A stretch of DNA of 40,060 nt from Escherichia phage IMM-002 (NC_048071.1); one strand, 5' to 3'; shown: positions 1-40,060, counted from the first letter of the stretch. Program-made: numbers and translations. The notes: generated from the sequence alone by a model not told the origin.

Positions 1-189
1 TCTCACAGTTCAAGAACCTCAAGTCTCCCCATAGGGTCACTCTCAGTCCGACTCAAGGCCCTACCCATAGACCTTCGGTCTAAACCTCAAGTCATTGACC
101 CGAAGTCGCCCCGAAGTCTGGACTGATAGTGCCTATATCTTGTGGTTGGGACGATTGGTCGGGACTATATGTAGTGCCTCTGAGTCTCT
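1..189. repeat. Left direct terminal repeat (DTR), identical to 39872..40060
   Basis: First 189 nt match the last 189 nt of the window base for base (aligned by eye); T7-like genomes carry 160-230 bp DTRs. Confidence 0.9.
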
Positions 190-210
190 ATCTGTATCGA
201 CCTAATGTCA

Positions 211-305
211 ATCACCTACAGTCAACCAGCCTACAGTCTCACTACCTACAGTCATCTACCATCGGTAAAGCCATCACCTACAGCCAATAGACCTACAGTC
301 ACCAG
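211..305. repeat. Array of about 5 short direct repeats (A)CCTACAG(T/C)C next to the left DTR
   Basis: Copies at about 215, 230, 244, 277 and 292; analogous in position to the short repeats flanking the T7 terminal repeat. Confidence 0.6.
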
Positions 306-519
306 ACACTATGTCGACCTTCAGTTTATCAGAGTCCTAAGGTCTTAGACTCATAGGTTATCACATCCGGTCCGTTTAGCAGTCAGAGACCATAGCTGAC
401 TAGGGTTATCGTTGTTGGTGTCTGCCAACCGGACTCTTATTATCCATAGTACAGACTTAAAGTCAATCATCTGTAGTCGTCCTTATATAGTCACTGTACT
501 ACTGTATAAATTACCAGTG

Positions 520-548
520 TTGACAGTGGGTCTAACTTTTGGTTTAAT
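520..548 (+). promoter_or_regulatory. Candidate host sigma70 early promoter (TTGACA-17 nt-TTTAAT)
   Basis: -35 TTGACA 520..525, 17-nt spacer, -10 TTTAAT 543..548; position matches the T7 A1-A3 region. Confidence 0.55.
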
Positions 549-656
549 AGCTTCCGTCAACACGACACGGCAAACACCGGATAGTAGAGACACCGGGTCA
601 CACGGTTAAGTAGACAGCCTGATAAGTCATACGAACAACAGGCAGTGACAAATAGC

Positions 657-686
657 TTGACAAGATGTAGCGACTTAACGTAGTAT
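657..686 (+). promoter_or_regulatory. Candidate host sigma70 early promoter (TTGACA-18 nt-TAGTAT)
   Basis: -35 TTGACA 657..662, -10 TAGTAT 681..686; resembles T7 A2/A3 (TTGACA...TAAGAT). Confidence 0.55.
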
Positions 687-886
687 GCACCACATCGACA
701 CGGCACCAACGGTCGATAAGCAGTACCAGAGGCACCGCCTCGCCGCTCTTTAACAATCTGGATAAACTCTTAATGTGCGCCGATAGTAAGCGATTAACTA
801 CAGGGCCTTGAGTCTACCGCGAGACGGGCTTGACTTGAGCGACTCAGGGTCCTGACTGATAGTCACTAACTTAAAGGATACACATC

Positions 887-1339: not shown

Positions 1340-1659
1340 TGATTGCCTATAAAATCTTCCGAATCCGCAAGGATGGAACGCTGGGAGCACTATTCATCAA
1401 TCGTAAGGCGGTCATTGAGGTAGGAGAATGGTACGAGGCAGAGAGCCATCCGACCAAAGGGTTTGCCTATCGTCCGGGCTGGCACTGCACCTTTGAGCAG
1501 AACGCGCCACATCTTAAGCTGGACCTGAAGTCAGGTGAGCGTAGGGCTTGGTTTAAGGTAGAGGTTGAGAACATAACGACCTACGACAGGCCAGAATCTC
1601 AGGGTGGTGCATGGGTATTAGCACAGCGTCTGCGGGTATTAGCACAGGTCTCAGAGTGA
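1339..1659 (+). CDS. Hypothetical early protein, translationally coupled to 0.3 (TAATG overlap)
   Basis: 106-aa ORF, GGAGG RBS 7 nt upstream, no recognised motif. Confidence 0.55.
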   Translation: MIAYKIFRIRKDGTLGALFINRKAVIEVGEWYEAESHPTKGFAYRPGWHCTFEQNAPHLKLDLKSGERRAWFKVEVENITTYDRPESQGGAWVLAQRLRVLAQVSE

Positions 1660-1724
1660 TAAACTACAGGTCATCCACATGGGTGGCCTGACTGATTGTC
1701 ACTTAACCATAAGGAAACAACAAG

Positions 1725-2459
1725 ATGAACGCACACGATAAAGTAATCATGAATAACCTGATGTCTCAGCTTCACGCTATAATCTGTAAGGCCGGTTATA
1801 AGGTGGAGTCGTTGGGGTCGGGCATCGCTGCGCAGGACCGCTGGGGAGCCGTTGAGGTCCTAGCCCGTGAGCATGGCTACAAGCTGTTAGGTCTGGGGCA
1901 CTTCGCCGCTGCCTTTGAGCATGAGGACCTGCCGGGGTATGCCATCAAGGTAGGCTTTAAGAAGGACGACTCAGGCGCTGCGTATGCTGCCTTCTGCCGA
2001 GAGAATGAGGGCATGGCTGGACTACCAGTCATCCATCTGGTCAAGCGCTTCAGCAGGGCTTACATGGTCGCTATGGACAAGTACCGCTCGCTTGAGGACA
2101 TCGGTGGGAACTACTGCCGGGAGGGCAAGACCTACGAGCAGCGAGTCTTAAACGTGTCGTGGCGTGTAGTCAACGCGATAATAGACCAGTGTGAACAGCC
2201 ATCCGAAGCACTGAGCTGGTGGCTTGACCAAGACGCTCGCATAGAGTTTGCACACGTCGAGACTCAGTACATCAAAGACCTTGCGCAGACTGCTAAGAAG
2301 ATTAACAGCTTCTTCTACGGGCTGGCATCGTTCGACACTCATCGCGCTAACGTGATGGTTGACAATAACGGGCGCTTGATAATCACGGACCCGGTGTCTT
2401 GGACTGCAAGCGACCATCAAGATGAGCTGCAAGGCAGGCTGAACGCAATAGCTGAGTGA
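1725..2459 (+). CDS. 0.7: Ser/Thr protein kinase, T7 gp0.7-like, kinase domain only
   Basis: 244 aa; GHFAAAFEHEDLPGYAIKVGFKKDDSGAAYAAFCR and ITDPVS match the T7 gp0.7 kinase core; C-terminal shut-off domain (about 115 aa in T7) absent. Confidence 0.85.
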   Translation: MNAHDKVIMNNLMSQLHAIICKAGYKVESLGSGIAAQDRWGAVEVLAREHGYKLLGLGHFAAAFEHEDLPGYAIKVGFKKDDSGAAYAAFCRENEGMAGLPVIHLVKRFSRAYMVAMDKYRSLEDIGGNYCREGKTYEQRVLNVSWRVVNAIIDQCEQPSEALSWWLDQDARIEFAHVETQYIKDLAQTAKKINSFFYGLASFDTHRANVMVDNNGRLIITDPVSWTASDHQDELQGRLNAIAE

Positions 2460-2525
2460 TAGGCGAGAGACCGCTACATCTAGTGGTCTCAAAGATTATC
2501 TCTCACAACATATAGGCAGGTGTAC

Positions 2526-2720
2526 ATGGGCTGGATACTTCTGGTCATCGGCTACGGGTTAATACTCGCAGTCATCACGAAAGACATCATCAAGGCACGT
2601 AAAGTCTACCGCTTCCAGTATGTGTCTCTGGGTCGCTGGACTGTAAGACAACCAAACGGACGCTTTATGCGTAACCTCGCAAACGTCTGGGACATCGCAA
2701 CCTTAGGGAGCAAACTGTAA
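2526..2720 (+). CDS. Small membrane protein (one N-terminal TM helix), hypothetical
   Basis: ATG 2526 (track ORF opens at GTG 2520); hydrophobic GWILLVIGYGLILAVI then basic tail; TAATG coupling to next gene. Confidence 0.4.
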   Translation: MGWILLVIGYGLILAVITKDIIKARKVYRFQYVSLGRWTVRQPNGRFMRNLANVWDIATLGSKL

Positions 2721-3142
2721 TGTGTAAGACCTGCGCTAAGTGTGGCGAGACCAAGAGTCTTGACCAGTTCGGCAGCAATAAGCGCAACAAGGATGGTCTG
2801 GACTATCGCTGCAAGACTTGCAGAAAGCAGGACGCCCAAGACAGGAGGCAGAAGGCACGAGAGGCCGGGACCTACAAGACGTCAAAGGCTGAAGAGAACC
2901 GAAAGCTGCGCTACGGTCTGGACCTAGAGGAGTACGAGAGCCTCCTACAGCAGCAGGGTGGAGTCTGCGCAATCTGCAAGGGTCAGTGTCCTACCGGGTG
3001 GAGACTGGCGGTGGACCACTCACACGAGACCGGGAAGGTGCGCGGACTGCTCTGCCTACAATGTAATACAGCGCTGGGCCAGTTCAAAGACTCACCGGAA
3101 CTACTGGCAAACGCAATCAAATATCTTCAGGAGAATCAATAA
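2720..3142 (+). CDS. HNH / Endonuclease VII-family nuclease (putative free-standing homing-type endonuclease)
   Basis: 140 aa; N-terminal Cys4 zinc ribbon (CKTCAKCGETK...YRCKTCR) plus GGVCAICKG...LAVDHSHETGKVRGLLCLQCNTALGQF, the Endo VII/HNH signature. Confidence 0.7.
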   Translation: MCKTCAKCGETKSLDQFGSNKRNKDGLDYRCKTCRKQDAQDRRQKAREAGTYKTSKAEENRKLRYGLDLEEYESLLQQQGGVCAICKGQCPTGWRLAVDHSHETGKVRGLLCLQCNTALGQFKDSPELLANAIKYLQENQ

Positions 3143-3398: not shown

Positions 3399-3421
3399 AC
3401 TAAACTATCACTAAAGGACTC
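3399..3421 (+). promoter_or_regulatory. Phage-type promoter variant (TAAACTATCACTAAAGGAC) upstream of the RNAP gene
   Basis: Matches the phage promoter core except A at -2; predicted +1 G at 3416. Confidence 0.5.
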
Positions 3422-3496
3422 AAGGTCGAAAGACTCTAAGTCAGGACTGAAGTGAAAGACTTTAGTGATAAGACAACAGTTATAAGGACTTTAAGT

Positions 3497-6471: not shown

Positions 6472-6929
6472 TGTTCAACCGTAAACTGAAGGCACGTATC
6501 GCAGCACTTGAAGCAACCATACAGCGTCAGGACCACAACCTTGAGCTGGCTAATCGAGAGCAAGCACGGCTGAGGGCCAAACTACAAAAAGCTGAGACCA
6601 AGCGTGAAGTCGAGCCTTTACGTGTGAAGCGCATGGTCGGCCTGAAGTTCAAGGCGCTGTTCAACGGTATCTACCAGCCGACTGAGTTCAAGACCGGGCC
6701 GGGACCATGTGGAAAGACAGTAACGCACTTCACCACGAGCCGAGACGAGCGGACGCTGACCATCCACCAGCACCATACGGACGAGTCCAGCAAGAGCTTT
6801 GAGTATCGGCTGAGCGACATCGACGGTCGCATCCAGTATGACTACGAGCTGGTGCAGGTTTACGGTGAGGAGGCAGAGCGGGAACGTATGGTCCAAGCCC
6901 TCCGCAACAGACCGCGCTTCATAGCCTAA
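6472..6929 (+). CDS. Hypothetical protein with N-terminal coiled-coil
   Basis: ATG 6472 preferred (GTG 6402 in track overlaps the microprotein); KLKARIAALEATIQRQDHNLELANREQARLRAKLQKAE heptad-like region. Confidence 0.5.
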
Positions 6930-6947
6930 ACTATCACTATAGGATTA
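6925..6947 (+). promoter_or_regulatory. Phage RNAP promoter (phi1.1-equivalent)
   Basis: CTAAACTATCACTATAGGATT, +1 about 6942. Confidence 0.8.
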
Positions 6948-6992
6948 GACTCAAGGTCATGACTCAAAGTCGCGGCCTTCATGATTAACCCT
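6946..6992 (+). promoter_or_regulatory. Conserved stem-loop, candidate RNase III processing site (R1.1-equivalent)
   Basis: TAGACTCAAGGTCATGA...TCATGATTAA; lower stem GGUCAUGA/UCAUGAUU with G-U pairs, upper hairpin GAC-UCAAA-GUC. Confidence 0.5.
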
Positions 6993-7035
6993 GTAGCAAA
7001 GCTACTACCTAACTCATCCAATCAGGAGCTACACC

Positions 7036-8551: not shown

Positions 8552-8562
8552 CTGAACGTCAA

Positions 8563-8597
8563 CCCAGTGGTCTTCGCGGACTGCTGGGTTTCTTTGT
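8563..8597 (+). terminator. Rho-independent terminator, early terminator TE-equivalent
   Basis: GC-rich hairpin CCCAGTGGTC-TTCGCG-GACTGCTGGG followed by TTTCTTTGTG, directly after ligase as in T7. Confidence 0.7.
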
Positions 8598-12031: not shown

Positions 12032-12049
12032 ACTATCACCTTAGGGATG
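12027..12049 (+). promoter_or_regulatory. Phage RNAP promoter
   Basis: TAAACTATCACCTTAGGGATG, +1 about 12044. Confidence 0.7.
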
Positions 12050-12096
12050 AGACCATGAGTCTTGTCCCTTTGTTCGCACTATTGATTAAGGAGTGA

Positions 12097-13854: not shown

Positions 13855-14019
13855 GTGTTTAAGAAACTTAAAGCCCGATACCACACGTTCATGTACAAGT
13901 GGTGGAACGAGGAGGCCAACTGTCTGTCCCGAATCCTTGGAGACCAGCGGTTTGACTCTAAGGCGTGGAAGCGAGCGAACCAGAAGTTCATGTATCACTT
14001 CCTGCGTATCGACTACTAA
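13855..14019 (+). CDS. Hypothetical small protein (gene 4.x position)
   Basis: GTG 13855 with GGAGGA 9 nt upstream (track ORF opens at GTG 13819); 54 aa. Confidence 0.35.
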   Translation: MFKKLKARYHTFMYKWWNEEANCLSRILGDQRFDSKAWKRANQKFMYHFLRIDY

Positions 14020-14037
14020 GCTATCACTGTAGGATAG
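14015..14037 (+). promoter_or_regulatory. Phage RNAP promoter (phi4.7-equivalent)
   Basis: CTAAGCTATCACTGTAGGATAG, +1 about 14032. Confidence 0.7.
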
Positions 14038-14076
14038 ACTCAAGGTCATTCACTTCGAGTGGCCTTTATGATTAGA
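14035..14076 (+). promoter_or_regulatory. Conserved stem-loop, candidate RNase III site (R4.7-equivalent)
   Basis: TAGACTCAAGGTCAT-TCACTTCGAGTGG-CCTTTATGATTAG; lower stem GGUCAU/AUGAUU, upper stem CACU/AGUG around a UCG loop. Confidence 0.5.
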
Positions 14077-14090
14077 CTATAGGAGACATT

Positions 14091-17883: not shown

Positions 17884-18006
17884 TCTACTGGGCCGGACTT
17901 CTGGCCCTTTACGCGATGTACGCAATCAGTGGGTCTAACCGACCGAAGCACTGAGTCTAACCGATAGTCATAACCTATCGTTCTACTGGCCATCTATAGG
18001 TGAAAC

Positions 18007-18029
18007 ACTAAACTATCACTATAGGGACT
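18007..18029 (+). promoter_or_regulatory. Phage RNAP promoter (phi6.5-equivalent)
   Basis: CTAAACTATCACTATAGGGAC, +1 about 18024. Confidence 0.85.
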
Positions 18030-18091
18030 TTAGGACCTAAGTTATGACTATAAGATAGACTTAAGTTAATACTTTAAGAGGAGACTTTAAG

Positions 18092-19262: not shown

Positions 19263-20831
19263 ATGGCTGAACGTCAAGGCTTCGCTGCTGAAGGAGCCAA
19301 AGCGGTTTATGACCGATTAAAGAACGGTCGCCAGCCGTATGAGACACGAGCTCAGAACTGTGCGGCTGTCACCATCCCGTCCCTGTTCCCGAAAGAGTCC
19401 GACAACTCCTCAACAGAGTACACGACTCCGTGGCAAGCTGTAGGCGCTCGCTGTCTGAATAACCTAGCGGCTAAGCTAATGCTTGCCCTGTTCCCTCAGG
19501 CACCGTGGATGAGACTCACCGTCTCTGAGTATGAGGCCAAAACCTTGAGTCAAGACACTGAGGCTGCTGCCCGTGTTGACGAGGGGCTGGCTATGGTCGA
19601 GCGTGTGCTGATGGCCTATATGGAGACCAATAGTTTCCGTGTGCCACTGTTCGAGGCCCTGAAGCAACTTATCGTCTCAGGTAACTGTCTGCTCTACATC
19701 CCGCCTCCAGAACAGGGTCAGTATAGCCCAATGCGAATGTACCGTCTGGTCTCCTATGTGGTCCAGCGCGATGCGTTCGGTAACGTGCTACAGATTGTCA
19801 CCCTCGACAGGATTGCGTTTAGTGCTCTGCCGGAAGACGTTCAGTCTCAGCTCAACGCTGATGACTATGAGCCGGACACCGAGTTGGACGTCTACACGCA
19901 CATCTACCGGGAAGGCGATGAGTACCTGCGTTATGAGGAAGTGGAAGGCGTAGAGGTTAACGGGACCGATGGTTCCTATCCACTTGATGCCTGCCCGTAC
20001 ATCCCGGTACGCATGGTCAGACTGGATGGTGAAGACTATGGTCGTTCCTACGCTGAAGAGTATCTTGGGGACCTGAACTCTCTGGAGACAATTACCGAGG
20101 CTATCACCAAGATGGCTAAGGTCGCCGCTAAGGTGGTGGGTCTGGTCAATCCGAACGGTATCACCCAGCCTCGTCGCCTGAACAAGGCAGCTACTGGTGA
20201 GTTTGTGGCCGGACGCATTGAGGACATCAACTTCCTGCAATTGACGAAAGGTCAGGACTTTACGATTGCCAAGTCGGTGGCTGACGCTATCGAGCAACGT
20301 TTAGGCTGGGCCTTCCTGCTTAACTCTGCTGTCCAGCGTAATGCTGAGCGAGTGACTGCTGAAGAGATTCGTTATGTTGCTGGTGAGCTTGAGGCGACTC
20401 TAGGCGGTGTGTACTCCGTGCAGTCTCAGGAGATGCAGCTACCTCTGGTCCGTGTGCTACTGAACCAGCTTCAGTCCGCTGGCATGATTCCTGACCTTCC
20501 GAAAGAAGCGGTAGAGCCTACGGTCTCCACTGGTCTGGAAGCTCTGGGTCGTGGTCAGGATTTGGAGAAGCTGACTCAGGCGGTGAACATGATGACTGGA
20601 CTTCAGCCTCTGGCTCAGGACCCGGACATCAACTTGCCGACCCTTAAGCTGCGACTCCTGAACGCTCTGGGTATCGACACCGCTGGTCTGCTCCTGACGC
20701 AAGACGAGAAGCTGAAACGCATGGCTGAGCAGTCGTCTCAACAGGCAGTCGTCCAAGGTGCTGGTGCTGCTGGTGCTAACATGGGTGCTGCGGTCGGTCA
20801 GGGTGCTGGTGAGGACATGGCTCAGGCTTAA
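19263..20831 (+). CDS. 8: Head-to-tail connector (portal) protein
   Basis: 522 aa, size and position of T7 gp8, first gene of the structural block. Confidence 0.9.
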   Translation: MAERQGFAAEGAKAVYDRLKNGRQPYETRAQNCAAVTIPSLFPKESDNSSTEYTTPWQAVGARCLNNLAAKLMLALFPQAPWMRLTVSEYEAKTLSQDTEAAARVDEGLAMVERVLMAYMETNSFRVPLFEALKQLIVSGNCLLYIPPPEQGQYSPMRMYRLVSYVVQRDAFGNVLQIVTLDRIAFSALPEDVQSQLNADDYEPDTELDVYTHIYREGDEYLRYEEVEGVEVNGTDGSYPLDACPYIPVRMVRLDGEDYGRSYAEEYLGDLNSLETITEAITKMAKVAAKVVGLVNPNGITQPRRLNKAATGEFVAGRIEDINFLQLTKGQDFTIAKSVADAIEQRLGWAFLLNSAVQRNAERVTAEEIRYVAGELEATLGGVYSVQSQEMQLPLVRVLLNQLQSAGMIPDLPKEAVEPTVSTGLEALGRGQDLEKLTQAVNMMTGLQPLAQDPDINLPTLKLRLLNALGIDTAGLLLTQDEKLKRMAEQSSQQAVVQGAGAAGANMGAAVGQGAGEDMAQA

Positions 20832-21781: not shown

Positions 21782-21804
21782 ACTAAACTATCACTATAGG
21801 GAGA
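21782..21804 (+). promoter_or_regulatory. Phage RNAP promoter (phi10-equivalent), best match to consensus
   Basis: CTAAACTATCACTATAGGGAGA, +1 about 21799. Confidence 0.9.
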
Positions 21805-21907
21805 CCAAGAGTAGAGACTCAAGGTTTCCCTGTAACTTCAGTCCATACGGATTGGGCATAACGAAGTCACTAAACTTTATCTTTCATTCGAATAGGAGAA
21901 TTATCAT

Positions 21908-36639: not shown

Positions 36640-36899
36640 CGCAGATGGACTTAGAGAAGTTCCTGTTAATGCTGGACACTGAACGTGCTCGACTCATGCT
36701 GCAAGACCTGCGGGATGACTCTAAGCGCTCGCCCCAGCTTTACAACGCCATCGAGAAGCTGTTGGCCCGTCACAACTTTGTGTTGAGCAAGGTGTCGGTG
36801 GACGAGAAGCAGTTGGCTGACATGGAGGCTCTGAACAGAGAGTACGACAAGGTGCTATCAGCTGCCGAAGATAATGACACCGGGTATGGTGTCCAATAA
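36636..36899 (+). CDS. 18: Terminase small subunit
   Basis: 87 aa; FLLMLDTERARLMLQDL, RSPQLYNAIEKLLARHNF match T7 gp18. Confidence 0.9.
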   Translation: MTQMDLEKFLLMLDTERARLMLQDLRDDSKRSPQLYNAIEKLLARHNFVLSKVSVDEKQLADMEALNREYDKVLSAAEDNDTGYGVQ

Positions 36900-36902
36900 G
36901 TG

Positions 36903-36950
36903 TTAGACTCAAGGTCATCTACTACATATAGTGGGTGGCCTTTATGATTA
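36903..36950 (+). promoter_or_regulatory. Conserved stem-loop, candidate RNase III site (R18.5-equivalent)
   Basis: TAGACTCAAGGTCAT-CTACTACATATAGTGGGTGG-CCTTTATGATTAA; same flanking boxes as 6946 and 14035. Confidence 0.5.
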
Positions 36951-37001
36951 ACACTATGCGAGATGCGCTCTCGTGAAATCTGAGAAACAAGGAGGGCAAC
37001 T

Positions 37002-37451
37002 ATGCTCAAACTTTTACGACAGGCCGTCCCTTGGCTGGTGGCAGGACTCCTGTTCTGTTCTGGCTACTGGGTGGCAGACAATAAGTGGGAGGCGAAGGTA
37101 AACAATGAGTACATCACGAAACTTGAAGCAACTGAGCAGTCGAGGCGTTCAGTGCAGTCCGAAGTCAACAAAGTCTCAGCCGAGTGGCAGGACAAGATGT
37201 CCGAGCTGGAAGGCTCTACTGATAGGGTTATTGCTGACCTTAACCGCGATAACAAGCGGCTGCGCGTCAAAGTCAACACCACAGGTATCACCGAGTCAGA
37301 TTACAGTCGATGCTTCCCTGATGGTCGAGTCGAACTACACCCAGAGACTTCTAAAAGTCTTATCCGAATAACGCAGGAAGCAGACCTTAAGGAGAAAGCC
37401 CTTCAGGATACCATACGTAAGCTTCAGCAAGAGAAGGAGGCGAAACCTTGA
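37002..37451 (+). CDS. 18.5: Rz-like i-spanin
   Basis: 149 aa; N-terminal TM ([13 protein letters not shown]), [27 protein letters not shown] and QDTIRKLQ match T7 gp18.5. Confidence 0.9.
37105..37371 (+). CDS. 18.7: Rz1-like o-spanin lipoprotein, embedded in +1 frame within 18.5
   Basis: 88 aa; lipobox-like AITSGC, Pro-rich; aligns with T7 gp18.7 (ISGCAS...VDSSLMVEPN). Confidence 0.85.
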   Translation: MSTSRNLKQLSSRGVQCSPKSTKSQPSGRTRCPSWKALLIGLLLTLTAITSGCASKSTPQVSPSQITVDASLMVESNYTQRLLKVLSE

Positions 37452-39211
37452 GTCAAGACTTAGCGGCGCGTCAGGCGCTTATGACTGCCCGTATGAAGGC
37501 AGACTTCGTGTTCTTCCTGTTCGTCCTGTGGAAAGCTCTGTCCCTACCGGTCCCGACTCGCTGTCAGATTGACATGGCGAAGAAACTATCGGCTGGGGAC
37601 AATAGGCGCTTCATCCTACAGGCGTTCCGTGGTATCGGGAAGTCCTTCATTACGTGTGCCTTCGTGGTCTGGAAGCTATGGAATAACCCGGACTTGAAGT
37701 TCATGATTGTGTCGGCCTCAAAGGAACGAGCCGATGCGAACTCCATCTTCATCAAGCGTATCATTGACCTGATGCCTCAGCTCCAAGAGTTGAAGCCTAA
37801 GCAGGGGCAGCGAGACGCAGTAATCAGCTTCGACGTAGGGCCTGCCAAGCCTGACCACTCACCTTCGGTTAAGTCCGTTGGTATCACTGGTCAGTTAACT
37901 GGTAGCCGTGCGGACATCCTGATTGCCGATGACGTAGAGGTCCCCGGTAACTCAGCGACTCAAGCTGCAAGGGACCGACTGTCTGAGCTGGTGAAAGAGT
38001 TCGACGCAATCCTGAAGCCGGGTGGTACGGTTATCTATCTGGGTACTCCTCAGACCGAGATGACCCTGTATCGTCAGCTTGAGGGTCGTGGTTACTCGAC
38101 TACCATCTGGCCAGCTCGTTACCCGCGTGATGAGAAGGACTGGAAGTCTTACGGCGACCGTCTGGCTCCGATGCTTCAGGCTGAGCTTGAGTCCGACCCT
38201 GAGGGCTACTACTGGCTCCCAACGGATGAGGTCCGCTTCGACGATGAGGACTTGAAGGAACGTGAGCTGTCCTATGGCAAGGCTGGCTTCGCTCTCCAAT
38301 TCATGCTCAACCCGAACCTTGGCGATGCCGAGAAGTACCCGCTGAAGCTGCGTGACCTTATCGTAGCGGACTTGGACCCTGAGTCTAGCCCTATGGTCTA
38401 CCAGTGGCTCCCGAACCTCCAGAACAAGCGTGATGACGTTCCTAACGTGGGACTCATGGGTGACACCTACCACACGTATCAGACTGTAGGTTCTGCTTTC
38501 AGTTCGTACACCCAGAAGATTCTGGTCATTGACCCTAGTGGTCGTGGTAAGGATGAGACGGGTTATGCGGTCCTGTATCAGCTCAACGGCTACATCTTCG
38601 TGATGGAAGCTGGTGGTATGCGCGGTGGCTATGAGGACTCAACGCTGGAGGCTCTGGCGAAGATTGGTCGCAAGTGGAAGGTGAACGAGTACGTCATTGA
38701 GGGTAACTTCGGTGATGGTATGTACCTCGAACTCTTCAAGCCTGTAGCGGCCCGTATTCACCCGGCAGCAGTGACTGAGGTCAAGAGCAAGGGTCAGAAG
38801 GAACTCCGCATCTGCGACGTTCTGGAGCCTATCATGGGGTCTCACCGACTCATCGTGAACTCCTCGACCATTGTGTCTGACTACCAGACTGCTGCTGACA
38901 AGGATGGAGTCCGTAACCCTATCTACTCTCTGTTCTACCAGATGACCCGTATCAGCCGTGAACGTGGAGCCTTGGCACACGATGACCGACTGGATGCTCT
39001 GGCTATCGGTGTACAGTTCTTCGTAGAGTCTATGGCTAAGGATGCCGTGAAGGGCCAGCGTGAAGTTACCGAGGAGTGGCTGGAGGAACAGATGGAAGAC
39101 CCGAAGAAGGGCTTTAAGTCCATCGAGACGGACTACTGGGCCAATGGGGTCCGGGTACAGTTCAATACAGATGATGACTTGGGCTTAGGGTCATACGTTC
39201 AGTTCCACTGA
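37448..39211 (+). CDS. 19: Terminase large subunit
   Basis: 587 aa with TTG start overlapping the 18.5 stop (N-terminus aligns residue-for-residue with T7 gp19); [134 protein letters not shown]. Confidence 0.96.
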
Positions 39212-39663: not shown

Positions 39664-39693
39664 CGCCATAATGGTAACAATCAACGAAAGCAA

Positions 39694-39820
39694 GACCTAA
39701 GGTCAGTTCATAGCTGACGCTACTCTACTGACCTTAGCTACTGAAGTCAAGACCTACAGTCAACACTATAGAAGCTATGGTCTCTCAGGGTCGTTAGGAC
39801 CTACGGTCTGACCTACGGAT
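39694..39820. repeat. Related short repeats GACCTA(A/C)(A/G)GTC next to the right DTR
   Basis: gacctaaggtcag, tgaccttagcta, gacctacagtcaac, gacctacggtctgacctacgg. Confidence 0.55.
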
Positions 39821-39871
39821 GGGCCTCCTTAAGAGGGACGATGAGTTTTGGACCAAAAGTTCGAGAGTCCA

Positions 39872-40060
39872 TCTCACAGTTCAAGAACCTCAAGTCTCCC
39901 CATAGGGTCACTCTCAGTCCGACTCAAGGCCCTACCCATAGACCTTCGGTCTAAACCTCAAGTCATTGACCCGAAGTCGCCCCGAAGTCTGGACTGATAG
40001 TGCCTATATCTTGTGGTTGGGACGATTGGTCGGGACTATATGTAGTGCCTCTGAGTCTCT
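39872..40060. repeat. Right direct terminal repeat (DTR)
   Basis: Identical to 1..189; window ends inside or at the end of the repeat. Confidence 0.9.

What the first reader, a model, noticed from the sequence alone, without database searches (positions are those of the whole stretch)
6946..6992. Family of conserved stem-loops (TAGACTCAAGGTCAT...CCTT-ATGATTA) at three sites
Near-identical box pairs flank a variable hairpin at 6946, 14035 and 36903. Weaker relatives (GACTCAAGGT) follow the promoters at 3419 and 21811. Each can fold into a lower stem GGUCAU/AUGAUU with G-U pairs, a 3' bulge and an upper hairpin. Their positions correspond to T7 RNase III sites R1.1, R4.7 and R18.5, so they are probably mRNA processing signals.
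Basis: partly seen in the sequence, partly recalled or inferred. Interest (0 to 1): 0.4.

Follow-up and report, generated by a model that had tools for sequence, protein, structure and literature searches.

The report
T7-type RNase III mRNA processing hairpins
The three conserved stem-loops are this T7-like phage's copies of the classic T7 RNase III mRNA-cutting signals, so the finding is real but ordinary; a more unusual thing turned up nearby, because their 5' box matches a short DNA palindrome (GAC-N5-GTC) that occurs about 90 times across the genome.

Summary
TAGACTCAAGGTCAT…GGCCTT(C/T)ATGATTA occurs exactly three times (6946-6987, 14035-14074, 36904-50), against zero expected.

The window is a complete Kayfunavirus-like (K1F/EcoDS1/Pisces group) T7-type phage genome. 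The boxes are nearly identical to T7 RNase III sites R0.5 and R1.1. The three sites lie at positions syntenic with T7:
- gp1.05 | gp1.1
- upstream of the gene 5 DNA polymerase
- gp18 | gp18.5

The supported structure has three parts: a lower stem from the variable flanks, an internal loop ACUC / (U/C)AUGA, and an upper stem AAGGUCAU…GGCCUU. Across 125 distinct sites from T7-like phages it is 95% paired, and 17 of 18 pairs show compensatory changes. The GGUCAU/AUGAUU pairing shows no covariation and costs about 10-16 kcal/mol.

The two "weaker relatives" (3417, 21811) are different elements. Three diverged true members were missed (1648-1711, 2448-2511, 782-875).

Verdict: new members of a textbook kind, low interest.

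In passing, GAC-N5-GTC occurs 90 times (65 in genes against 17±3.4 under synonymous shuffling). It is lineage-specific and conserved at orthologous positions, and its function is unknown. GAC-N3-GTC is absent.

The parts
6934..7000 (+). R1.1-type RNase III processing hairpin (conserved core 6946-6987). Lower stem AGGAUUAG/UUAACCCU, internal loop ACUC/CAUGA, upper stem AAGGUCAUGACUC…GUCGCGGCCUU. Predicted cut between 6982 and 6983.
   Evidence: 64 bits; -21.5 kcal/mol. Lies between gp1.05 (PF25755) and gp1.1 (PF08200). Cut position by analogy to T7 …UAU|GA.
14023..14087 (+). RNase III processing hairpin upstream of gene 5, the positional analogue of T7 R4.7 (core 14035-14074). Its upper stem AAGGUCAUUC/GAGUGGCCUU is identical to that of T7 R1.1. 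Predicted cut between 14069 and 14070.
   Evidence: (62.5 bits). The downstream ORF is a family A DNA polymerase.
36892..36963 (+). R18.5-type RNase III processing hairpin (core 36904-36950). It has a 14-bp upper stem and an 8-bp lower stem AGUGUUAG/UUAACACU. Predicted cut between 36945 and 36946.
   Evidence: -26 kcal/mol, z -4.9; 68 bits. Lies between gp18 (PF11123) and the Rz-like gp18.5 (PF03245).
1648..1711 (+). It resembles T7 R1. It lies between a 106-aa early ORF and the gp0.7 kinase gene. Predicted cut between 1693 and 1694.
   Evidence: 46 bits, E 9e-11, all 18 model pairs standard. Orthologues found in Pisces, K1F and EcoDS1.
2448..2511 (+). Second diverged member, downstream of the kinase gene (GAGUGAUAG GCGA GAGACCGCUAC…UAGUGGUCUC AAAGA UUAUCUCU).
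   Evidence: 26.8 bits, E 5e-5. Orthologue in Pisces at L003:2567-2630.
782..875 (+). Weak, branched-apex candidate upstream of the first gene (SAM lyase, gene 0.3 position). It is the positional analogue of T7 R0.3.
   Evidence: 16.8 bits, E 0.05. Fold -30.5 kcal/mol, z -4.1. The downstream ORF matches PF23780.
6928..6944 (+). Phage RNA polymerase promoter (AAACTATCACTATAGGA, +1 at G6942). It abuts the R1.1-type hairpin, like T7 phi1.1A and R1.1.
   Evidence: 12 promoter matches against 0.07 expected.
14018..14034 (+). Promoter-like sequence (AAGCTATCACTGTAGGA, 2 mismatches) abutting the gene 5 hairpin.
1725..2459 (+). Homologue of T7 gp0.7 protein kinase. In T7 this kinase phosphorylates and stimulates host RNase III.
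   Evidence: 32% identity, E 2e-36 to T7 gp0.7 residues 27-218. Function as described in PMC4858673.
21799..21830 (+). NOT a family member. This is the 5'-terminal leader hairpin of the phi10 (capsid) transcript, GGGAGACC…GGUUUCCC. The GACUCAAGG at 21816 sits in its apex.
   Evidence: z -3.9; T7 phi10 and phi3.8 leaders GGGAGACCACA(A/G)CGGUUUCCC. Not detected by the model.
3404..3470 (+). NOT a canonical member. This is the promoter plus GACTCAAGGTC upstream of gene 1. A 10-11 bp stem AUCACUAAAG(G)/CUUUAGUGAU encloses small hairpins. That stem is not conserved in EcoDS1 or K1F.
   Evidence: z -1.9.
12043..12069 (+). R3.8-type leader hairpin after the gene 4 promoter, followed by UUUGUUCGCA as at T7 R3.8. 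It belongs to a different class of T7 RNase cleavage site.
   Evidence: -15.8 kcal/mol, z -3.8.

Best explanation
The three elements are host-RNase-III processing signals of the T7 R1.1 class, carried in the polycistronic + strand mRNAs of a Kayfunavirus-like T7-type phage.

Each transcript folds into an irregular hairpin with three parts:
- an ~8-bp lower stem made from the variable flanks;
- an asymmetric internal loop, 5' ACUC / 3' (U/C)AUGA;
- a 10-14 bp upper stem whose base is the invariant AAGGUC/GGCCUU.

By analogy with T7, the RNase III dimer binds the two coaxial helices. Because the target lies in the internal loop, it cuts only one strand, on the 3' side (…CCUU(U/C)AU|GAUUA).

The upstream mRNA therefore ends in the intact hairpin, which protects it from 3' exonucleases. 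The downstream cistron (gene 1.1, gene 5, gene 18.5) gets a new 5'-monophosphate end 21-56 nt before its start codon.

Shown here: sequence homology to mapped T7 sites, the structure, its covariation, and synteny. Inferred: the cleavage itself and its exact position.
For: - The pattern is exact at 3 sites against 0 expected.
- The boxes match T7 R0.5 (TAGACTCAAGGTC…GGCCTTTATGATTA) and R1.1. Seven T7 sites place the recorded cut at the same motif position.
- The canonical fold is the minimum-free-energy structure at all three sites, -21 to -26 kcal/mol.
- Covariation in 9 paralogous sites: 93% paired, 10 of 18 pairs with double changes.
- Covariation in 125 distinct sites from T7-like contigs: 95% paired, 17 of 18 pairs with double changes, 0 of 500 shuffles as good, and slid controls 32-47% paired.
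- The model also recovers T7 R6.5 (44.8 bits) and, weakly, R1 (14.7 bits, E 0.62), neither of which was used to build it.
- The flanking genes are syntenic with T7.
- The 81-nt site region is 95-99% identical in 200 of 222 related phage records, while the genomes are about 83-94% identical.
- A gp0.7 kinase homologue is present.
- Literature: T7 mRNAs are cut by RNase III at specific sites; R1.1 is cut at a single bond; internal loops restrict cleavage to one strand and leave protective 3' hairpins (PMC4858673; PMC1540722; PMC6938266).
Against: - No cleavage data exist for this phage or, as far as I found, for any Kayfunavirus.
- The T7 cut coordinates come from my memory of Dunn & Studier 1983. 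The T7 records available here do not annotate them.
- Rfam has no such family, so there is no curated model to test against.
- Shuffle z-scores for the two shorter hairpins are modest, -1.6 and -2.1.
- RNase III is dispensable for T7 growth (PMC4858673, PMC6938266), so the benefit of the sites is quantitative.
Confidence: 0.86

Rival explanations
1. Same function, but with the first reader's fold: GGUCAU pairs with AUGAUU as a lower stem, GCCUU(U/C) forms a 3' bulge, and a small hairpin sits on top.
For: The six pairs can form in most sites: 85% in the 9-site set, with one apparent compensatory change in T7 R18.5.
Against: In 125 distinct sites the pairing is 84.5% paired, which equals the shuffle mean (324 of 500 shuffles as good). 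When column 24 changes, its partner does not compensate, whereas the canonical partner does. Enforcing this pairing gives -10 to -12 kcal/mol, against -21 to -26 for the canonical fold. According to my recollection of Chelladurai et al. 1991, which I did not read here, mutations against a related 'dsRNA mimicry' pairing left R1.1 cleavage intact.
Confidence: 0.03
2. The hairpins are transcription terminators or attenuators for host or phage RNA polymerase.
For: They are stable intergenic hairpins on the transcribed strand.
Against: No U-run follows any of them (…AUGAUUAACCCUGUAGC, …AUGAUUAGACUAUAGG, …AUGAUUAACACUAUGCG). None is among the terminator-like hits, whereas the TE-like terminator at 8561-8590 is found. 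Essential downstream genes (DNA polymerase, terminase) must be read through.
Confidence: 0.03
3. The hairpins act without cleavage, as mRNA-stabilising structures or as an operator for a phage or host RNA-binding protein other than RNase III.
For: The strict conservation of the single-stranded loop bases ACUC and UAUGA (139-148 of 150 sites) exceeds what RNase III is known to need. The function of that conservation is not settled.
Against: The homologous T7 sites are experimentally cleaved by RNase III (PMC4858673, PMC6938266). No candidate binding protein emerged.
Confidence: 0.06
4. The conserved 5' box is primarily a DNA-level element. It would be one copy of the genome-wide GAC-N5-GTC motif, or, at 6946, part of a replication origin like the T7 primary origin in the phi1.1A/B region (the T7 origin location is from my own recollection). 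The RNA hairpin would then be secondary.
For: GACTCAAGGTC fits GAC-N5-GTC, which is 4-fold enriched and conserved in this lineage. Site 6946 carries two tandem copies.
Against: The same RNA boxes and structure are conserved in T7-, T3- and K11-type phages, which lack the GAC-N5-GTC enrichment. In those phages the G of GAC is not conserved. Covariation demonstrates selection on RNA pairing. A dual role cannot be excluded.
Confidence: 0.05

Closest known systems
Bacteriophage T7 RNase III sites R0.5 and R1.1 (also R0.3, R1.3, R4.7, R18.5)
   Same: Near-identical boxes: T7 R0.5 is TAGACTCAAGGTC…GGCCTTTATGATTA, and the R1.1 upper stem is identical to that of the 14035 site. Both have the same two-helix plus 4/5-nt internal-loop architecture, the same intercistronic positions (after gene 1 / before 1.1, before gene 5, between 18 and 18.5), and a phage promoter immediately upstream, as at T7 phi1.1A/R1.1.
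   Different: The apical hairpins and lower stems differ in sequence, though they covary. This phage has no gene 4.7, so its 'R4.7' sits directly before gene 5. No canonical sites were found at the R1.3 or R13 positions. Cleavage is untested here.
T7 R1 (upstream of gene 1)
   Same: The diverged early-region members at 1648-1711 and 782-875 share its variant boxes ACAGGUCAUC…GGGUGGCCUGA.
   Different: In this phage they lie before the kinase gene and before gene 0.3, not before gene 1. The element upstream of gene 1 (3404-3470) has a different structure.
T7 phi10 / phi3.8 (R3.8) 5' leader hairpins GGGAGACC…GGUUUCCC
   Same: The 21799-21830 element has the same terminal helix, starting at +1 of the capsid-gene promoter. 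The 12043-12069 element is followed by the same UUUGUUCGCA as T7 R3.8.
   Different: The 21811 hairpin has an enlarged apex that happens to contain GACUCAAGG. It lacks the 3' box and the internal loop of the R1.1 class.

Membership tests
T7 R1.1-class RNase III processing signal | Irregular hairpin: two helices of about 8-10+ bp separated by an asymmetric internal loop that contains the scissile bond. | tested here: met
   It is the minimum-free-energy and centroid structure at all three sites, and the same architecture as the aligned T7 sites.
T7 R1.1-class RNase III processing signal | Conserved sequence boxes ACUCAAGGUC … GGCCUU(U/C)AUGAUU shared with the mapped T7 sites. | tested here: met
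   The 14035 upper stem is identical to that of T7 R1.1.
T7 R1.1-class RNase III processing signal | The helices are maintained by compensatory substitutions among paralogous and orthologous sites. | tested here: met
   95% paired, 17 of 18 pairs with double changes, 0 of 500 shuffles as good, in 125 distinct sites. In 9 sites, 93% paired.
T7 R1.1-class RNase III processing signal | Intercistronic position on the transcribed strand, syntenic with the T7 sites. | tested here: met
   gp1.05|gp1.1, upstream of DNA polymerase, gp18|gp18.5. All genes are on the + strand.
T7 R1.1-class RNase III processing signal | [quoted passage not shown] | not testable with these tools
   Predicted at 6982|6983, 14069|14070 and 36945|36946 by alignment to T7. 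The T7 cut coordinates are recalled from Dunn & Studier 1983.
T7 R1.1-class RNase III processing signal | No inhibitory (antideterminant) base pairs in the proximal and distal boxes. | tested here: inconclusive
   Satisfied by identity to R1.1 for 14035. The other two sites share the first 8 upper-stem pairs, but the distal part differs. I did not have the antideterminant table (PMC1540722 was read only in part).
Intrinsic (Rho-independent) terminator | A G+C-rich hairpin followed immediately by a U-run. | tested here: not met
   No terminator-like hit at any site, and no T-run in the sequence.
Any curated Rfam family | Score at or above a family's gathering threshold. | tested here: not met
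   0 matches in the whole window. These T7 processing signals match no family in Rfam 15.
R1.1-class membership of the 'weaker relatives' at 3417 and 21811 | A 3' box, the internal loop and two-helix geometry in addition to the 5' box. | tested here: not met
   Neither is reported by the model at E<=10 with filters off. 21811 folds as the GGGAGACC/GGUUUCCC leader hairpin. The long stem at 3417 is not conserved in EcoDS1 or K1F.

The most novel reading that the evidence does not exclude
The 5' box GACTCAAGGTC is one instance of an apparently undescribed, lineage-specific, genome-wide DNA motif, the interrupted palindrome GAC-N5-GTC (preferably GACY…RGTC).

The evidence:
- The window holds 90 copies against 23 expected.
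- Within genes there are 65 against 17.0±3.4 after shuffling synonymous codons (z = 14).
- The six specified bases are 91-92% conserved against EcoDS1 and K1F, while the flanks are 78% conserved and control patterns show no such excess.
- The two half-sites vary independently.
- Copies occur in all reading frames and in both orientations.

Together these point to recognition of double-stranded DNA by a dimeric protein or enzyme, of phage or host origin, that is still unknown. The RNase III boxes and the terminal-region repeats (ACCTACAGTC) would then be copies of it, or would double as such sites.
Probability: 0.45. Interest if true: 0.6.

Novelty: new member of a known kind. Interest (0 to 1): 0.2.

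Why it matters
For the finding itself there are three practical gains.
- It gives a correct annotation of six mRNA processing signals, with predicted cut sites. No public record listed in the similarity search for the 6946 region annotates one there; some instead carry spurious 'hypothetical protein' ORFs over it.
- It provides a covariance model and alignment for a class that Rfam lacks.
- It corrects the secondary-structure model.

Nothing about the mechanism is new. T7 RNase III sites have been textbook material since the 1970s and 1980s.

The incidental GAC-N5-GTC signature would matter more if it holds. It would indicate an unknown sequence-specific DNA transaction (binding, modification, priming or packaging) shared by a large and therapeutically used phage genus. 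It would also constrain genome recoding and engineering of K1F-type phages.

Tried and rejected
- **Rfam scan of the whole window:** no family matched.
- **Public annotations of RNase III sites:** none found in the T7 (NC_001604, V01146), EcoDS1, Pisces or K1F records, nor in the 60 listed records that hold the 6946 region.
- **Genome papers:** the K1F and phiYeO3-12 genome papers and Panayotatos & Truong 1985 are not held in the library.
tested and rejected.
- **Terminator reading:** rejected.
- **3417 and 21811 as family members:** rejected.

For the GACTCAAGGT / GAC-N5-GTC enrichment I tested and rejected several trivial causes:
- dinucleotide composition;
- Markov order 1-5 word composition: 3.7-11 expected against 33 observed;
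- codon usage and protein sequence, by codon-order and synonymous shuffles;
- an RNA mini-hairpin: the half-sites do not covary, and there is no orientation bias relative to transcription.

Other dead ends on the motif:
- Literature searches for GACNNNNNGTC, EclHKI and CCTAAAG found nothing relevant.
- A Pfam scan of ten small ORFs found no methyltransferase or obvious DNA-binding candidate. It found only an Endonuclease VII/HNH domain in ORF 2720-3142, for which Pisces annotates no equivalent ORF at that position, so it cannot explain a lineage-wide motif.
- One script call failed without output. It was replaced by analytic expectations.

Full report
**What is in the sequence**

The pattern TAGACTCAAGGTCAT–N(8-38)–GGCCTTNATGATTA occurs exactly three times, all on the + strand: 6946-6987, 14035-14074 and 36904-36950. 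None of 100 shuffles produced a match.

The 10-mer GACTCAAGGT also follows the promoters at 3417 and 21816.

**What the window is**

The window is a complete T7-type phage genome of 40,060 bp with 189-bp direct terminal repeats. All long ORFs are on the + strand. It has 12 phage-polymerase promoters of the type AAACTATCACTATAGGA.

Its closest relatives are Kayfunavirus phages: Escherichia phage Pisces at about 94%, and GW1, K1F and EcoDS1 at about 83-89%.

**Homology to T7 RNase III sites**

I read the T7 genome (L001) at the RNase III cleavage coordinates I recall from Dunn & Studier 1983: 890, 1468, 3138, 5887, 6448, 11203, 13892, 18563, 27281 and 36856. Seven of the ten fall at the same position of the same motif, …CCUU(U/C)AU|GA.
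- T7 R0.5 reads TAGACTCAAGGTCGCTCCTAGCGAGTGGCCTTTAT|GATTATCAC.
- T7 R1.1 reads AACTCAAGGTCATTCGCAAGAGTGGCCTTTAT|GATTGACC.

The window's boxes are the same elements. The 14035 site has an upper stem identical to that of R1.1 (AAGGUCAUUC/GAGUGGCCUU) and differs from it only in the loop and the lower stem.

The names R3.8, R4.7, R6.5 and R13, and the role of E. coli RNase III in cutting T7 polycistronic mRNAs, are confirmed by PMC6938266 and PMC4858673. The exact coordinates rest on my memory, because the T7 records available here do not list them.

**Structure**

The minimum-free-energy fold of each site has three parts:
- a lower stem made from the variable flanks, for example AGUGUUAG/UUAACACU at 36903;
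- an asymmetric internal loop, ACUC on the 5' side and (U/C)AUGA on the 3' side;
- an upper stem whose base is AAGGUC/GGCCUU and which continues into the variable apex.

The energies are -21.5, -21.3 and -26.1 kcal/mol.

Enforcing it gives only -12.1, -10.0 and -10.1 kcal/mol.

**Covariation**

On an alignment of the three window sites and six T7 sites, the canonical structure is 93% paired, and 10 of 18 pairs change on both sides.

I built a covariance model from that alignment. I then scanned IMG/VR viral contigs with an exact pattern for the boxes.

The model found 153 sites in those loci plus Pisces, K1F, EcoDS1 and the window. In the 125 distinct sequences:
- the canonical structure is 95% paired;
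- 17 of 18 pairs have compensatory changes;
- no shuffle reaches it (0 of 500);
- slid controls are only 32-47% paired.

That is exactly the shuffle mean (324 of 500 shuffles are as good), and it shows no compensation.

**Census in the window**

- 1648-1711: 46 bits, E 9e-11.
- 2448-2511: 26.8 bits, E 5e-5.
- 782-875: 16.8 bits, E 0.05, with a branched apex.

All three lie in intergenic gaps of the early region. The first two have variant boxes (ACUA CAGG…CCUG ACUGA) that resemble T7 R1. Orthologues are found in Pisces, K1F and EcoDS1.

Neither 3417 nor 21811 is reported by the model.
- The 21811 element is the 5'-terminal hairpin of the capsid-gene transcript, GGGAGACC…GGUUUCCC. It is homologous to the T7 phi10 and phi3.8 leader hairpins, and its apex happens to contain GACUCAAGG.
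- The 3417 element can form a 10-11 bp stem (AUCACUAAAG/CUUUAGUGAU), but EcoDS1 and K1F lack that stem.
- An R3.8-like hairpin followed by UUUGUUCGCA lies at 12043-12075.
- A long hairpin at 17955-18062 encloses a promoter, as T7 R6.5 does.

**Context**

The genes flanking the three strong sites match T7 synteny:
- 6946 lies between a gp1.05-family ORF and gp1.1.
- 14035 lies directly upstream of the family A DNA polymerase (gene 5).
- 36903 lies between gp18 and the Rz-like gp18.5.

Phage promoters abut the first two sites, the same arrangement as T7 phi1.1A and R1.1.

By alignment to T7, the predicted cuts are 6982|6983, 14069|14070 and 36945|36946. These would leave 46-53 nt hairpin-ended tails on the upstream mRNAs and 21-56 nt leaders on the downstream ones.

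A homologue of the T7 gp0.7 kinase is encoded at 1725-2459. In T7 that kinase stimulates RNase III (PMC4858673).

**Mechanism**

The mechanism is inferred from T7. RNase III binds the two coaxial helices. The internal loop restricts cleavage to one phosphodiester on the 3' side. The hairpin then stays on the upstream product as a barrier to 3' exonucleases (PMC1540722). R1.1 is cut once, giving 47-nt and 13-nt products (PMC4858673).

**Rivals**

- Terminators are excluded. No U-run follows the hairpins and no terminator-like hit falls on them, while the early terminator at 8561-8590 is detected.
- A cleavage-independent role, or a role involving another protein, cannot be excluded. It is not needed to explain the data.
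- A DNA-level role for the 5' box is discussed below.

**Novelty**

The site region is 95-99% identical in 200 of 222 related phage records. None of the 60 listed records annotates an RNase III site there, and Rfam has no family for it. The sites are unannotated new members of a very well known kind, and interest is low.

**Noticed in passing: a genome-wide GAC-N5-GTC motif**

GACTCAAGGT with up to one mismatch has 33 matches on both strands against 3.9 expected. It is the most over-represented 10-mer neighbourhood in the genome.

The underlying signal is an interrupted palindrome.
- GAC-N5-GTC occurs 90 times against 23 expected.
- GAC-N3-GTC never occurs, also against 23 expected.
- GTC-N2-GAC is 2.6-fold enriched.

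Within genes the signal survives a null that keeps protein sequence and codon usage:
- GAC-N5-GTC: 65 copies against 17.0±3.4 (z = 14).
- GAC-N3-GTC: 0 against 20.2±3.6.
- Among 59 Asp-x-Val tripeptides, the codon pair GAC…GTC is never used.

The enrichment is lineage-specific:
- Loci with the Kayfunavirus promoter: 3.8-fold.
- T7-type loci: 1.2-fold.
- K11-type loci: 1.7-fold.

The N3 avoidance is shared with T7-type and T3-type phages but not with the K11-type group, which I take from memory to be Klebsiella phages. That pattern looks like restriction-site avoidance.

Sites are retained at orthologous positions in EcoDS1 and K1F 70% of the time, against about 44% for control patterns. At 66 sites outside the RNA elements, the six specified bases are 91-92% conserved, against 78% for the flanks. 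Controls show no such footprint.

Three further properties argue for recognition of double-stranded DNA by something dimeric, rather than for an RNA hairpin:
- The half-sites vary independently (GACT/GACC).
- Sites occur in all three frames and in intergenic DNA.
- There is no orientation bias.

The terminal regions carry related repeats (ACCTACAGTC), reminiscent of the short-repeat arrays next to the T7 terminal repeat as I recall them.

I found no literature on this motif and no candidate protein. Whether the RNase III 5' boxes double as such sites is open. In T7-type phages the same RNA boxes exist without the genome-wide motif, so the RNA function does not depend on it.

Noticed in passing
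whole window (90 sites, e.g. 69, 840, 853, 3416, 6947, 6960, 8068, 12956, 14036, 18140, 30927, 36905, 38374): The interrupted palindrome GAC-N5-GTC (preferably GACY…RGTC) occurs 90 times against 23 expected. In genes there are 65 copies against 17.0±3.4 under synonymous shuffling (z = 14). It is specific to Kayfunavirus-type genomes (3.8-fold, against 1.2-fold in T7-type). The six specified bases are 91-92% conserved against 78% for the flanks. The half-sites vary independently, and sites occur in all frames. Function unknown, and no literature found..
   Followed up: partly
whole window: GAC-N3-GTC (the Tth111I-type site) is completely absent: 0 against 23 expected, and 0 against 20.2±3.6 in genes. 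The codon pair GAC-x-GTC is never used in 59 Asp-x-Val tripeptides. T7-type and T3-type phages also avoid it, but K11-type loci do not (0.69 of expectation), which suggests host-linked restriction avoidance..
   Followed up: partly
window 1-860 and 39690-40060: The window has 189-bp exact direct terminal repeats (1-189 = 39872-40060). These are flanked by arrays of short repeats such as (C/G)ACCTACAGTC, resembling (from memory) the short-repeat arrays next to the T7 terminal repeat. They overlap the GAC-N5-GTC / GACCTNNAGTC motif: 11 GAC-N5-GTC sites fall in the first 860 bp..
   Followed up: partly
window 2720-3142 (+): A 140-aa early ORF carries a Recombination endonuclease VII (HNH-type) domain (PF02945, E 1.7e-25). 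Pisces annotates different, shorter ORFs at that place, so this is probably a mobile homing-endonuclease insertion..
   Followed up: no
window 17955-18062 (+): A long imperfect hairpin (-32.8 kcal/mol, z -4.4) has arms that enclose the promoter at 18010-18026. T7 R6.5 has the same geometry, with the site split by phi6.5. It would form only in read-through transcripts and is a possible further RNase III target..
   Followed up: partly
window 12043-12075 (+): A leader hairpin GGGAUGAGAC…GUCUUGUCCC follows the gene 4 promoter and is followed by UUUGUUCGCA. The same downstream sequence occurs at T7 R3.8 (…GGUUUCCCUUU|GUUCGCA). It is probably the R3.8 counterpart..
   Followed up: partly
window 19533-19549 and 37436-37452: The 17-nt identical string AAACCTTGAGTCAAGAC occurs inside gene 8 and at the gene 18.5/19 junction. 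At the junction its TTG is the start codon listed for the 587-aa terminase ORF (37448). About 0.05 such pairs are expected by chance..
   Followed up: no
window 36904-36932 (+): A weak sigma-70-like match (TAGACT-17-TATAGT, 9 of 12) overlaps the R18.5-type hairpin. The T7 record annotates a minor E. coli promoter 'E' at the equivalent place (36836). The match is no better than chance: 16 found against 10.9 expected in the region..
   Followed up: no
public records matching window 6925-7005: Several GenBank records place spurious 'hypothetical protein' or 'microtubule-binding protein' CDS over this non-coding promoter and hairpin region. None of the 60 listed records annotates an RNase III site there..
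   Followed up: no
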